Shown: in pieces, positions 57,092 through 59,437 of the stretch | Numbering within the stretch: position 1 is the first letter of the stretch | How the letters are laid out: every line of letters starts with the position of its first letter | Assembly: GCA_964415615.1 (NCBI GenBank) | Contig: CAYQAW010000006.1 | Span: forward strand, 495-64,494 | Direction of reading: 5' to 3' | Source: an uncultured Gammaproteobacteria bacterium | Lineage (GTDB): Bacteria; Patescibacteriota; Microgenomatia; Daviesbacterales; UBA10151 | DNA: 64,000 bases | Position numbers and translations under genes: made by a program | Notes under the pieces: model-generated | Database searches by the model: none | Told to the model about the DNA's origin: nothing | The model's input: only the letters and a program-made list of their open reading frames with translations

Positions 57092-59437
57092 ATGATTGAT
57101 AGCTTAGCTGAAAAAAGGCAATATTTTCCTGGACGTCTTGATTCTGCTTTTGATTTAGCAAGTGGCGGCATGGGAATTCACCTACATGCAGTCGGTCTTT
57201 TTGCAGCTAGGAAAGAGCTTCCTAAGTGGGCTCGTGAAAGTCTGACTTTTTATTCTGCAAACTACTTATCAACACCCTATATTTATAAATGGAGGGGAAG
57301 CCAGCATTTTAAAATTGGACCTTTTGCTCTATCTCCATACTCAGAACTAAATTTAAAACTTTTTGATGCTAAAGATAAGGAATATAGCAGAATTGAGATG
57401 ATGCAGACCAGATTATTACTTGGAGGAGAAGATGCTTTATCTGTACCCAATCCGGAATCTCCAATTACTGACGAGCAAGAATGGGCATCATTACTTATTA
57501 AATCCAGCGAGCGAGGGTTAATCGACTATGATGCTGCCACTGCTCCGCAGATACCTACTCCTGCTAGTTTCTTTGATGTCGTATGCAATCTTTCAAGAGC
57601 AGGTATAGATATACCAGATGAATTTTTTGCCCAACACGACGCATTACAATTTTCAGAAAGATTTAGAGCAGCAACTTTAGAAGCAGCAGTTCACGAACTT
57701 GCAGCAATGCTGGCTGTAACAGAACAATTAACATTTGATGCTCAGGCATTGGGAATTCCTATTCCATCTGACTATCGGCCAACCGACTCTATAGATATTT
57801 GGGCTGCTAACTGGCAAAGTATGTTTGGAGAGCCAATGCCTGGTCTAGCTGGCCTATATCATCAGGCTCAAGGGCTTACCCATCAGTTGGGACTCTACGA
57901 TCTTATGGATTGGAGCTATTCAGGTATATCTATGGTTAAAATAGGAGGAGTGAGGCCAATAGATTTTGTAGACGAGAGAGTAAGTAAAAGACCAAAACTT
58001 TTAGATGCTTTTCGTTTCCTAGTAGAAGCTCGTTTTATGTTTGAGGACAATAAAAACTATGATCAAGCCTTAGCTGACAACCAGGATGGATTATTCCAAA
58101 GATACCCAAATAAAACTAAAAATACGCTTGCCGTTGCTGCAGCTGCCATTACTTATTTATCAGATGTACCCGTGGAGTATTTCAGCGTAGAAAGGAAACA
58201 TCTCGGTAGTGAAGCAAGGGCAGAAATGGTCAGATTGGCTAGAAACTATATTAGCAGAGCTCTAGAGGTAGGAAAAGCTGCTAGTCAAGTATTAACCAAT
58301 CCTAATTCTCCAGAATTTTTAACATTAAGTCAGGAGATACAAGGATATATGGCTCAGGGGCGAATTGCTGAAATGACAGTATTAAATGTCCTAGGAGTAA
58401 AAAACGCAGATCAAGCAAGTAATTTATATAGAAAGGCCCGAGAATTAGCTACAATTTACCCAGAACATACTGCCTTTTATACTGATTTGTCAGATGCAAT
58501 TAGAGATTTTGAGATAGAAATGCTTGAAGGAACAGGACTACTCACAGTTGATGATGTACCGACTCTATTAAATGAAGGAGAAATGACAGCTCCTTTCAGT
58601 ACTGTTGAAGATATTGGAAAAGCTGTTGCTCGCATACACCCATCAGCCTACGCTCAAAGTTTTTCTTTAAACACAGATGCCTTAAACTGGGGCGTATTAG
58701 TCAAACCTCAAAGTGCTGATATTATTTTTGATAAAGGAAGACCAAGAAGTTTTAGAATAAAATTTGTATATCAAAGCCCCGAAGGAGAATCCGCAATATT
58801 AGAAGGTAAATACCAACTCCAAAAAGGGAATCAAAAATTTGAACTTAATTTCTTAGAGGCTCAATCGGAAATTCCAGAAATGTATCAAGCCTGTTTGCAA
58901 GCTACATTATCTATTCTTGATGCAGTAGGGGTTCAAGTAGAGGAAAAACGAAAAACTAAGGCTAAAGAGTCTCCTGCATTACCAAGTAAACCTGCAGCTC
59001 CTACTAAAAAGGTTCCTTATATAAAAGAAGGTGCTACTGAGGTAAAAACAAAAGTTAAAACTAGACCAGAGCAACCTGTTCAGCCTCAGGAAGAGGAAGA
59101 AGTACAACAGGTAGTTGTATTTGAACCTGAAAAAAGCAAGATGGTTATGGATGAGGTAAGTAAAAAAAGAATTCAAAAACAGTTAGAGAAAGTAAGTCAT
59201 GAAGATAGAGCTAATATTCAGGAAGCAATTGATAGATTTAATAATGGAGGATCAATCAGATTCTATCCTCTTAAATCTAGTGGTCCAAATGGTGAAGTAT
59301 TATTTGCATTAAGAGCAAAGGCTACTGTCCGCGGAGGAAGCCGCATCTTAGTTACACCAATTAAAGGTACTTCAGATTTTGCAGTGATAGCAGCTGGGTA
59401 TAGAAAAGATATCTATAGAGATTGGGGATTAGAGTAA
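57092..59437 (+). CDS. Large (781 aa) protein with a C-terminal RelE/ParE/YafQ-like toxin-fold domain; N-terminal ~690 aa of unknown function
   Basis: C-terminus KRIQKQLEKV...ALRAKATVRGGSRILVTPIKGTSDFAVIAAGYRKDIYR matches the RelE/ParE pattern (...LR...yRiiy.i.....i..vghRkdiY). Confidence 0.55.
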   Translation: MIDSLAEKRQYFPGRLDSAFDLASGGMGIHLHAVGLFAARKELPKWARESLTFYSANYLSTPYIYKWRGSQHFKIGPFALSPYSELNLKLFDAKDKEYSRIEMMQTRLLLGGEDALSVPNPESPITDEQEWASLLIKSSERGLIDYDAATAPQIPTPASFFDVVCNLSRAGIDIPDEFFAQHDALQFSERFRAATLEAAVHELAAMLAVTEQLTFDAQALGIPIPSDYRPTDSIDIWAANWQSMFGEPMPGLAGLYHQAQGLTHQLGLYDLMDWSYSGISMVKIGGVRPIDFVDERVSKRPKLLDAFRFLVEARFMFEDNKNYDQALADNQDGLFQRYPNKTKNTLAVAAAAITYLSDVPVEYFSVERKHLGSEARAEMVRLARNYISRALEVGKAASQVLTNPNSPEFLTLSQEIQGYMAQGRIAEMTVLNVLGVKNADQASNLYRKARELATIYPEHTAFYTDLSDAIRDFEIEMLEGTGLLTVDDVPTLLNEGEMTAPFSTVEDIGKAVARIHPSAYAQSFSLNTDALNWGVLVKPQSADIIFDKGRPRSFRIKFVYQSPEGESAILEGKYQLQKGNQKFELNFLEAQSEIPEMYQACLQATLSILDAVGVQVEEKRKTKAKESPALPSKPAAPTKKVPYIKEGATEVKTKVKTRPEQPVQPQEEEEVQQVVVFEPEKSKMVMDEVSKKRIQKQLEKVSHEDRANIQEAIDRFNNGGSIRFYPLKSSGPNGEVLFALRAKATVRGGSRILVTPIKGTSDFAVIAAGYRKDIYRDWGLE

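What the first reader, a model, noticed from the sequence alone, without database searches (positions are those of the whole stretch)
57092..59437. 781-aa protein ending in a RelE/ParE/YafQ-like toxin fold, with no adjacent antitoxin-sized upstream ORF
The last ~90 aa (..QKQLEKV...LFALRAKATVRGGSRILVTPIKGTSDFAVIAAGYRKDIYR) match the RelE/ParE superfamily pattern, including the terminal hRKDIY. The preceding ~690 aa are GC-rich and unassignable. A large carrier with a C-terminal RNase-toxin fold resembles polymorphic-toxin/effector architecture rather than a type II TA module. The convergent 92-aa Cys-containing ORF downstream could be an immunity or cognate protein.
Basis: partly seen in the sequence, partly recalled or inferred. 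Interest (0 to 1): 0.6.

Follow-up and report, generated by a model that had tools for sequence, protein, structure and literature searches.

The report
Large CPR protein with RelE tail
A 781-residue protein from an ultrasmall (Patescibacteria/CPR) bacterium ends in a distant relative of the RelE toxins, which cut mRNA on the ribosome; it belongs to an undescribed family of about 190 sequence clusters with no partner antitoxin gene, and in this genome its front end has been replaced by part of an unrelated protein.

Summary
The ORF at 57092-59437 (+) is real. Its last ~104 residues form a RelE-type fold: AF2 pLDDT 85.6, 20 of the top 22 Foldseek PDB matches are RelE-superfamily toxins, and PF05016 is the top Pfam match for the family consensus and three natural tails. 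All of these sequence and fold scores are below formal thresholds, and the window's own tail hits no Pfam model. An exhaustive HMMER search found 186 cluster representatives, mostly 640-700 aa. The loci with organism names are Patescibacteria: Daviesbacteria, Levybacteria and unclassified MAGs. The architecture is fixed: a variable N-terminus, a ~360-aa core of unknown fold, a K/E/P-rich linker and the RelE tail. The tail is the most conserved segment and keeps the RelE R61/R81/Y87 equivalents (R751, R771, Y775). No antitoxin-sized neighbour recurs in 21 loci; flanks are often housekeeping genes (SHMT, DHFR, LepA). There is no signal peptide, no secretion domain and no swapped toxin tail, and the 92-aa downstream ORF is a singleton, so the polymorphic-toxin and immunity reading is not supported. 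The window copy is an in-frame chimera: residues 1-260 come from an unrelated ~295-aa protein family. The most likely function is a single-chain RelE-type mRNA endonuclease controlled by its own upstream domains. This is inferred, not shown.

The parts
57056..57084 (+). Promoter-like site (TTGTAA-17-TATAAT) whose -10 element ends 8 nt before the ATG. This suggests a very short or absent leader. The evidence is weak.
   Evidence: It is a consensus match only, and the number of such sites in the region equals the shuffle expectation.
57092..57871 (+). N-terminal module, residues 1-260. It is 37-55% identical to standalone ~291-307-aa proteins of an unrelated, unannotated family, and lacks their last ~35 residues. 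It replaces the usual variable N-terminus of the RelE-tailed family.
   Evidence: P0132, P0153-P0163. hhalign of that family against the 700-aa family gives P=0.36. GC is 0.409. The standalone genes are not neighbours of family members.
57872..58957 (+). Conserved family core, residues 261-622. Its fold is unknown. Conserved motifs include YPNxxK, LLNPNSPEF, YRRA, FYxxL, ILTxDD and FDWxFLExxxxPEM.
   Evidence: Alignments; conservation profile. No Pfam, NCBIfam, PADLOC, PHROG or PDB-sequence match. The full-length AF2 model is unusable, with pLDDT 36.
58958..59122 (+). Charged linker rich in K, E, P, R and Q, residues 623-677. It is poorly conserved and probably disordered.
59123..59437 (+). 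C-terminal RelE-type (BECR-fold) module, residues 678-781 plus the stop codon. Family-conserved residues are N717, R741, R751, R771, K772 and Y775. R751, R771 and Y775 align with E. coli RelE R61, R81 and Y87.
   Evidence: AF2, Foldseek, profile against PDB sequences, Pfam PF05016, PHROG 'RelE-like toxin', hhalign, residue conservation.

Best explanation
The gene encodes a member of an undescribed family of soluble proteins of about 650-700 aa, so far seen only in Patescibacteria (CPR). The family is built as a variable N-terminal region, a conserved ~360-aa core of unknown fold, a charged flexible linker, and a C-terminal RelE-type BECR domain.

Shown or well supported:
- The tail is a divergent member of the RelE/ParE superfamily, closer to RelE-type mRNases than to ParE gyrase poisons.
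- The tail is the most strongly conserved part of the protein and retains the basic and aromatic residues that RelE uses for catalysis.
- There is no partner gene.
- The window copy is an in-frame chimera whose first 260 residues come from an unrelated ~295-aa protein family.

Inferred:
- The tail binds the ribosomal A site and cleaves mRNA.
- Its activity is held in check and released in cis by the large upstream part, which acts as an auto-inhibitor or sensor tethered through the flexible linker. That would make the protein a single-chain toxin or effector for stress-induced or phage-induced translation shut-off, analogous to CARF-RelE (Cami1) or to fused toxin-antitoxin proteins.

My confidence in the RelE-superfamily assignment is about 0.85. 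My confidence in the cis-regulated mRNase mechanism is about 0.4.
For: Fold:
- AF2 gives pLDDT 85.6 with the RelE-like topology, matching the topology described in bioRxiv 10.64898/2026.08.28.747851.
- 20 of the top 22 Foldseek PDB hits are RelE-superfamily toxins, with probability up to 1.00; Cami1's RelE domain ranks 26.

Sequence:
- With the 57-tail profile, Mtb RelE1, Mtb RelE2, T. thermophilus RelE and aRelE all fall in the top 10 of 177,635 PDB sequences and align in register.
- PF05016 is the top Pfam hit for the consensus tail (E=5.8e-4) and for the tails of P0035, P0134 and P0141; it also appears for P0148 at E=0.09, as that tail's second hit.
- P0035 hits the PHROG 'RelE-like toxin' at E=7e-4.
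- hhalign against a RelE seed gives P=1.2e-4, against a ParE seed 0.31, and against reversed controls about 0.3.

Catalytic positions among 134 tails:
- R751 in 132
- R771 in 127, plus 4 K
- Y775 as Y in 90 and F in 35
- R741 as R in 81 and K in 21
- N717 in 126

Family and architecture:
- 186 representatives at E<=1e-3, most 640-700 aa and aligned to the very C-terminus.
- 140 of 152 retrieved sequences carry the tail.
- The tail has the highest information content of any segment.

No partner gene.

Location and mobility:
- The proteins appear cytoplasmic.
- There are no phage or plasmid copies.

Precedents:
- Cami1 is a sensor fused to RelE (PMC11229360).
- Fused BECR toxin-antitoxin proteins are described in PMC11980606.

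Context of the closest subfamily is rich in TA and defence-type genes:
- the window island with MazG, an AbiO/Nhi-like fragment, a Cas4-like nuclease and tRNA-Arg
- L001 with Gp49-HTH and RelB pairs
- L003 with a YafQ-Phd pair
Against: - No sequence match reaches a curated threshold. The window's own tail hits nothing in Pfam, and the best Foldseek E-value is only 8e-3.
- Nothing is known about the core, so the auto-inhibitor or sensor role is pure inference. The full-length model failed.
- About a quarter of tails have F instead of the RelE Y87-equivalent Y.
- Many distant members sit between glyA and folA or next to lepA. That looks like a stable chromosomal gene rather than a defence-island gene.
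- The window copy has lost the family's own N-terminus and sits among gene fragments, so this particular copy may be impaired.
Confidence: 0.5

Rival explanations
1. The RelE-like module is a non-toxic ribosome-binding or RNA-binding adaptor in a chromosomal housekeeping protein of CPR bacteria. It would target the unknown core to translating ribosomes or mRNA, for example for mRNA turnover or quality control in organisms with reduced RNase and ribosome repertoires. It would not act as a conflict toxin.
For: - Flanks are housekeeping genes (SHMT, DHFR, LepA, aaRS, NTP-transferase) and no antitoxin is present.
- The whole 360-aa core is conserved along with the tail.
- There are no phage or plasmid copies.
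- 35 of 134 tails have Y775F.
Against: - The residues RelE needs for catalysis are the most conserved positions of the protein.
- The family appears patchy, with 186 clusters at 50% identity, rather than universal in CPR.
- The closest relatives lie in islands rich in TA and defence-type genes.
- The N-terminus is hypervariable and has been swapped, which is more typical of conflict proteins.
Confidence: 0.25
2. One reading: a polymorphic toxin or secreted effector with a C-terminal RNase toxin, and the convergent 92-aa ORF as its immunity protein.
For: [quoted passage not shown]
- BECR domains are common in polymorphic toxins (PMC3482391).
Against: - The tail is constant and the N-terminus is variable, the opposite of polymorphic toxins.
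- No signal peptide, TM segment or trafficking, repeat or pre-toxin domain is found in 65 scanned members.
- The 92-aa ORF is convergent, a singleton, and absent from all other loci.
- RelE-like BECR domains are mostly intracellular (bioRxiv 10.64898/2026.08.28.747851).
Confidence: 0.04
3. A conventional toxin whose antitoxin is encoded elsewhere or is not a protein, for example an RNA from the structured GC-rich region upstream. That would be an unrecognised type I or type III-like arrangement, or one acting in trans.
For: The 590 nt directly upstream are non-coding, GC-rich (0.45) and fold well beyond shuffles, z about -4 on both strands.
Against: - That upstream region has no significant similarity in any related locus: only chance-level 18-26-nt matches at E>=0.16 in L001, L006 and L007.
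- It has no Rfam match.
- No recurrent neighbour of any kind is found.
Confidence: 0.06
4. The window copy is a non-functional recombination product (a chimeric pseudogene in a decaying island), whatever the intact family does.
For: - The family N-terminus is replaced by 260 residues of an unrelated protein.
- Neighbouring genes are fragments: a RadC C-terminal 78 aa and a 137-aa piece similar to the N-terminus of AbiO/Nhi-type proteins.
- At least one relative (L015) carries an in-frame TAA stop.
Against: - The 781-codon frame is intact across the junction.
- The entire conserved part, residues 261-781, is retained at 69% identity to P0002.
- The family N-terminus is poorly conserved anyway.
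- The same protein sequence is on record from two sources, NCBI and Logan, on 2 contigs.
Confidence: 0.15

Closest known systems
Monodomain RelE/StbE-type toxins in Pfam PF05016, such as M. tuberculosis RelE1/RelE2, T. thermophilus RelE, P. horikoshii aRelE and E. coli RelE
   Same: - The predicted fold and topology match.
- The core motif LR-x-G-x-(Y/F)R-(V/I)-L ... (Y/H)R-K-D-I-Y aligns in register.
- Equivalents of RelE R61, R81 and Y87 are conserved.
   Different: - The module is the last ~100 residues of a 650-780-aa protein.
- There is no antitoxin gene.
- Sequence scores are below the Pfam gathering threshold (20.8 against 23 bits for the consensus, nothing for the window's tail).
- Many members, including the window copy, have a 5-residue insertion between beta2 and beta3.
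Cami1 (CARF-RelE, a type III CRISPR ancillary effector)
   Same: - It is a single polypeptide in which a large N-terminal regulatory domain controls a C-terminal RelE-family nuclease that cleaves A-site mRNA (PMC11229360).
- Its RelE domain appears among the Foldseek hits (8phb_A, rank 26).
   Different: - No CARF, SAVED or other cyclic-nucleotide sensor domain is detectable.
- No CRISPR-type gene is seen next to the gene in any of the 21 loci examined.
- The core is unrelated to anything known.
Fused toxin-antitoxin BECR proteins and other multidomain RelE/ParE toxins (Gerdes 2025, PMC11980606: RelE-YiaG, YefM-YoeB, BrnT-BrnA fusions, PtuXYZ, ToxM)
   Same: A RelE-superfamily domain is embedded in a larger protein and a separate antitoxin gene is absent. 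That paper states that many multidomain BECR proteins lacking an identifiable antitoxin were left unanalysed.
   Different: - No HTH, RHH or YefM antitoxin domain, no TM domain, and no PtuA-like ATPase or restriction-enzyme partner is present.
- The attached part is about 550 aa of unknown fold.
- The family is invisible to the Pfam-seeded approach used in that study.
Polymorphic toxins with BECR-fold C-terminal RNase domains (Zhang et al. 2012, PMC3482391)
   Same: A large protein with a C-terminal BECR-fold module.
   Different: The toxin tail is constant and the N-terminus variable. There is no trafficking domain and no downstream immunity gene. The predicted location is cytoplasmic.

Membership tests
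RelE/ParE superfamily (BECR fold, RelE-like group) | Topology of a short pre-beta strand, pre-alpha helix, alpha helix, four-stranded antiparallel sheet and a C-terminal helix or extension | tested here: met
   The AF2 model of residues 678-781 has pLDDT 85.6. DSSP elements are a 2-residue E at 7-8, H11-21, H26-40, E47-53, E59-66, E73-79, E86-93 and H94-101. This is a prediction, not an experimental structure.
RelE/ParE superfamily (BECR fold, RelE-like group) | Structural similarity to solved RelE-family toxins | tested here: met
RelE/ParE superfamily (BECR fold, RelE-like group) | Sequence match to a curated family model (PF05016 or related) at the gathering threshold | tested here: not met
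   - The window tail has no hit at E<=1.
- The family consensus hits PF05016 at 20.8 bits against a cutoff of 23, E=5.8e-4.
- P0035, P0134 and P0141 score 17-18.5 bits.
- PF05016 is consistently the top-ranked model but stays sub-threshold.
RelE/ParE superfamily (BECR fold, RelE-like group) | RelE-type catalytic constellation: basic residues on beta2 and beta3, and an Arg and Tyr in the C-terminal segment (E. coli RelE K52/K54, R61, R81, Y87) | tested here: met
   Alignments put R751 at R61, R771 at R81 and Y775 at Y87. Conservation among 134 tails is 132, 127 and 90 (plus 35 F) respectively; R741 is R or K in 102 of 134. The equivalence rests on sequence alignment, not on a superposed structure.
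RelE/ParE superfamily (BECR fold, RelE-like group) | Ribosome-dependent cleavage of A-site mRNA | not testable with these tools
   This needs biochemistry.
ParE-type gyrase poisons (a subset of PF05016) | Similarity to ParE rather than RelE, and absence of the RNase catalytic residues | tested here: not met
- The catalytic-type Arg and Tyr residues are conserved.
- ParE-type structures rank low in Foldseek.
Type II toxin-antitoxin module | An adjacent, co-oriented small antitoxin gene, usually overlapping or within a few nt | tested here: not met
   - The 1.25 kb upstream has no credible ORF and no Pfam hit.
- The downstream ORF is convergent and a singleton.
- No recurrent small neighbour is found in 21 loci.
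Type II toxin-antitoxin module | A monodomain toxin of about 80-120 aa | tested here: not met
   The protein is 781 aa and the family is 640-700 aa. There is no conserved internal start before the tail: the columns of M684 and M686 are N/K/R and I in the family.
Polymorphic toxin system | An N-terminal secretion or trafficking domain, signal, or repeats (T5SS/T6SS/T7SS markers, RHS, LXG and similar) | tested here: not met
   No Pfam domain is found in 65 members at E<=0.01. There is no N-terminal signal and no consistent TM segment.
Polymorphic toxin system | A conserved N-terminal part with diverse, swapped C-terminal toxin domains among relatives | tested here: not met
   - 140 of 152 relatives share the same tail.
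- The tail is the most conserved segment.
- Of the 12 without the standard tail, at least three are fragments or truncated genes, and the variant tails tested are RelE-like or give no Pfam match.
- The N-terminus is the variable part.
Polymorphic toxin system | A cognate immunity gene immediately downstream | tested here: not met
   The 92-aa (called 80-aa) ORF at 59440-59718 lies on the opposite strand, has no homologue in other loci or in the protein collection (a singleton), and has no family match.
Cami1-type CARF-RelE effectors | A CARF sensor domain and a type III CRISPR context | tested here: not met
   No CARF, SAVED or PADLOC hit. Neighbours are unrelated to CRISPR.
Fused toxin-antitoxin BECR proteins (PMC11980606) | A recognisable antitoxin DNA-binding domain (HTH, RHH or Phd/YefM) in the same polypeptide | tested here: not met
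   No such Pfam domain is found in any of 65 members. A functional cis-antitoxin of unknown fold cannot be excluded.

The most novel reading that the evidence does not exclude
This would be a new class of single-gene, antitoxin-less RelE effectors specific to Patescibacteria. A ~550-aa sensor or auto-inhibitor of a previously unseen fold, with an exchangeable N-terminal input module, would gate a tethered ribosome-dependent mRNase. The window copy would have swapped that input module for a piece of another protein. The result would be a CPR-specific abortive-infection or translational shut-off switch, in a lineage reported to be largely devoid of CRISPR-Cas (PMC4742961).
Probability: 0.3. Interest if true: 0.7.

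Novelty: new variant of a known kind. Interest (0 to 1): 0.5.

Why it matters
RelE-family nucleases are almost always described as ~90-aa toxins paired with an antitoxin gene. This family has about 190 clusters at 50% identity, and its named sources are all CPR/Patescibacteria. It is invisible to Pfam, NCBIfam, PADLOC and PHROGs. In it, a well-conserved RelE module is permanently tethered to a large unknown domain and has no partner gene.

If the tail is active, its control must be intramolecular. That would add a new architecture to the short list of sensor-RelE fusions such as Cami1. It would also provide an experimentally tractable entry point into translation control or phage defence in ultrasmall bacteria.

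The finding also shows that Pfam-seeded censuses of multidomain BECR toxins, such as PMC11980606, miss whole families. The ~360-aa core is a candidate new fold or domain family worth defining.

Tried and rejected
- Pfam and NCBIfam on the whole protein and on its own tail gave nothing, even at E<=1. Pfam on 65 full-length members gave nothing at E<=0.01.
- The word-indexed homology search with the 3-sequence tail alignment found nothing. phmmer and hmmsearch of the tail (one sequence or three) against PDB sequences gave only noise.
- Full-length AF2 with a 3-sequence alignment failed at pLDDT 36, so there is no information on the core or on core-tail contacts.
- The whole-family profile against PDB sequences gave no hit for the core. 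PADLOC and PHROGs gave none for the window protein.
- I tested whether the window's private N-terminus is a divergent version of the family N-terminus. It is not (hhalign P=0.36).
- I tested whether the ~295-aa donor family is an operon partner of the RelE-tailed family, which would make this a fusion of neighbours. It is not.
- I tested whether the tail can be a separate gene. The split in L015 is an in-frame TAA nonsense codon, not a natural two-gene form.
- I tested whether the GC-rich upstream region is a known RNA. There is no Rfam hit at E<=1 and no tRNA or tmRNA there, and it has no significant similarity in related loci.
- Searches for viral, phage and plasmid copies found none.
- The literature searches found no description of this family.
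Full report
**The observation**

It sits in a low-GC window (0.366 overall). To its left is a 1.25-kb stretch without credible ORFs. To its right is a convergent 92-aa ORF, followed by a small island that ends at tRNA-Arg(tct), 63066-63139 (-).

**First tests of the C-terminus were negative**

- Pfam and NCBIfam gave nothing for the whole protein or for its last 103 aa, even at E<=1.
- phmmer against PDB sequences gave only noise.
- The word-indexed search of 5.8 billion proteins found only two relatives: P0002 from Candidatus Daviesbacteria at 69% identity, and P0003 at 51%.
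- Both share everything from about residue 255 to the very end, with a nearly identical tail. Their N-termini are unrelated to that of the window protein.

**Structure supports the RelE fold**

- AF2 of residues 678-781 with the three tails gave pLDDT 85.6 and pTM 0.77. The order of elements is short beta, alpha, alpha, four beta-strands, alpha.
- That is the RelE-like topology as defined in a recent BECR classification (bioRxiv 10.64898/2026.08.28.747851).
- In Foldseek against the PDB, 20 of the top 22 hits are RelE-superfamily toxins: YafQ, RelE of T. thermophilus, E. coli, M. tuberculosis and P. horikoshii, HigB2, HP0892 and YoeB/ParE.
- Probabilities reach 1.00 and target-normalised TM reaches 0.69. 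E-values are modest, with a best of 8e-3. The RelE domain of Cami1 also appears.

**A large hidden family**

- An exhaustive HMMER search of 1.84 billion cluster representatives with the three-sequence profile found 186 proteins at E<=1e-3 and 139 at E<=1e-10.
- Most are 640-700 aa and align right up to the last residues.
- An iterated HMM of the tail recognises it in 140 of the 152 sequences retrieved. The rest include fragments and a few members with different tails, some of them RelE-like.

**Sequence-level evidence from family diversity**

- A 57-tail profile puts Mtb RelE1, Mtb RelE2, T. thermophilus RelE and aRelE in the top 10 of 177,635 PDB sequences. They align in register over LR-x-G-x-YR-V...R-x-x-x-Y (E 0.15-0.7 each).
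- The family consensus tail hits PF05016 (ParE_toxin, the Pfam family that contains RelE) as its best match over the full model. The score is E=5.8e-4 and 20.8 bits against a cutoff of 23. Gp49 comes second.
- PF05016 is also the top hit for the natural tails of P0035, P0134 and P0141 (E 0.003-0.009). For P0148 it is the second hit, at E=0.09.
- P0035 hits the PHROG 'RelE-like toxin' at E=7e-4.
- Local hhalign of the 134-tail alignment gave P=1.2e-4 against a RelE-only seed. A ParE-only seed gave P=0.31 and reversed-sequence controls gave 0.25-0.31.
- These alignments equate R751, R771 and Y775 with E. coli RelE R61, R81 and Y87.
- Across 134 tails, R751 is present in 132, R771 in 127 (plus 4 K), Y775 as Y in 90 and F in 35, R741 as R or K in 102, and N717 in 126.
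- R751 is the only invariant column of a 65-member full-length alignment.

I conclude that the tail is a divergent but genuine RelE-type member of the RelE/ParE superfamily (confidence about 0.85). It formally fails the Pfam gathering threshold.

**Architecture of the family**

- Information content along the protein shows a poorly conserved, gappy N-terminus up to about residue 260 and a conserved core at 261-622.
- A less conserved K/E/P/R/Q-rich linker follows at 623-677. The tail is the most conserved segment of all.
- The core matches nothing in Pfam (65 members), NCBIfam, PADLOC, PHROGs or PDB sequences.
- My full-length AF2 run failed at pLDDT 36, so the core's fold remains unknown.
- There is no N-terminal signal peptide and no consistent TM segment.

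**Genomic context**

I examined 21 loci: the window, L001, L003-L006 and 15 of the 16 metagenome loci (L022 was left out of the comparison).

- All-against-all comparison of neighbours found no recurrent small partner.
- Recurrent neighbours are housekeeping genes: serine hydroxymethyltransferase upstream, and dihydrofolate reductase or LepA downstream.
- The nearest relatives (window, L001, L003) lie among TA pairs and defence-like genes.
- The convergent 92-aa ORF, called as 80 aa, is a singleton with no family match and no counterpart elsewhere.
- No copies were found in viral contigs, phage genomes or plasmids.
- All named sources are Patescibacteria: Daviesbacteria, Levybacteria and unclassified MAGs.

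**The window copy is a chimera**

- Residues 10-260 are 50% identical to P0132. Over nearly their whole length, residues 1-262 are 37-55% identical to a dozen standalone proteins of 291-307 aa.
- That family is unrelated to the RelE-tailed family (hhalign P=0.36) and is not encoded next to it.
- The homology switches at about Q260/G261 (nt 57871/57872), exactly where the conserved core begins.
- The 5' module and the non-coding DNA before it are somewhat GC-richer, at 0.41 and 0.45.
- The frame is intact, and the same protein sequence is on record from two sources, NCBI and Logan, on 2 contigs.
- So this is a real in-frame N-terminal module replacement. It keeps the entire conserved portion of the family.

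**Interpretation**

The polymorphic-toxin/effector model fails each of its defining tests:
- the tail is constant and the N-terminus is variable;
- there is no trafficking domain;
- there is no immunity gene;
- the protein is predicted to be cytoplasmic.

The best-supported mechanism is a single-chain RelE-type ribosome-dependent mRNase whose activity is controlled in cis by the large upstream region through a flexible tether. The precedents are Cami1 (CARF-RelE; PMC11229360) and the fused or multidomain BECR toxins catalogued by Gerdes (PMC11980606). Gerdes explicitly left multidomain proteins without an identifiable antitoxin unanalysed.

This mechanism is inferred (about 0.4). The main rival (about 0.25) is a housekeeping protein that uses the RelE module as a ribosome or mRNA adaptor. 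The glyA/folA/lepA neighbourhoods favour that rival. The window copy itself may be impaired by the N-terminal replacement (about 0.15).

**Verdict**

This is a real, previously undescribed multidomain member of a known superfamily, so I class it as a new variant of a known kind. Interest is moderate at 0.5. It is not the polymorphic toxin proposed. It is a sizeable antitoxin-less RelE family, so far seen only in CPR bacteria, with a large unknown domain, and it deserves structural and biochemical follow-up.

Noticed in passing
window 56500-57091: A 590-nt non-coding stretch directly upstream of the gene is GC-rich (0.45 against 0.366) and packed with GC hairpins. Its MFE z-score is about -4 on both strands. 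It has no Rfam match at E<=1, no tRNA or tmRNA, and no significant similarity in related loci. It could be an unknown structured RNA, a cluster of terminators or REP-like hairpins, or a remnant of the recombination that created the chimera.
   Followed up: partly
window 57092-57871; P0132, P0153-P0163; loci L007-L010: The donor of the window protein's N-terminus is a family of standalone ~291-307-aa proteins with a conserved 'LDSAFDLASGGMGIHLHAV' start. It has no Pfam match and no conserved neighbours. Its function is unknown.
   Followed up: partly
window 59719-63139: A small island lies next to tRNA-Arg(tct), 63066-63139 (-). It contains a MazG-like pyrophosphatase (60097-60444), a 137-aa fragment resembling the N-terminus of PDC-S41/AbiO/Nhi defence proteins (60447-60860), a 78-aa C-terminal RadC/JAB fragment (61289-61525), a DUF5647 protein (61637-61891) and a Cas4-like PD-(D/E)XK nuclease (62392-63051). 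It looks like a decaying defence or mobile island.
   Followed up: partly
window 56243-56311 and 7451-7521: A ~70-nt segment upstream of the gene is repeated in inverted orientation, at 85% identity, about 49 kb away.
   Followed up: no
L015 1609-1611: One family member carries an in-frame TAA just after the core, which separates the RelE tail into its own ORF. It is a nonsense mutation or a sequencing error. P0049 is the resulting truncated product.
   Followed up: yes
P0134, P0141, P0144, P0152 (family members): A few family members carry tails that the main tail HMM does not recognise. Two of them (P0134, P0141) hit PF05016 as their top Pfam match. This suggests either exchange among RelE-superfamily modules on the same core or strong divergence.
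   Followed up: partly
window 52431-52988: This ORF encodes a 185-aa protein with two treble-clef zinc fingers (PF23477, E=5e-32) and a Lys-rich tail.
   Followed up: no
L001 169-841, 5358-5868 and 6671-6964; L003 1156-1669: The closest relatives of the gene are surrounded by ordinary small TA pairs: Gp49-HTH, RelB with a RelE-like toxin, and Phd-YafQ. L001 also has a tRNA-Met about 450 nt upstream of the gene.
   Followed up: partly
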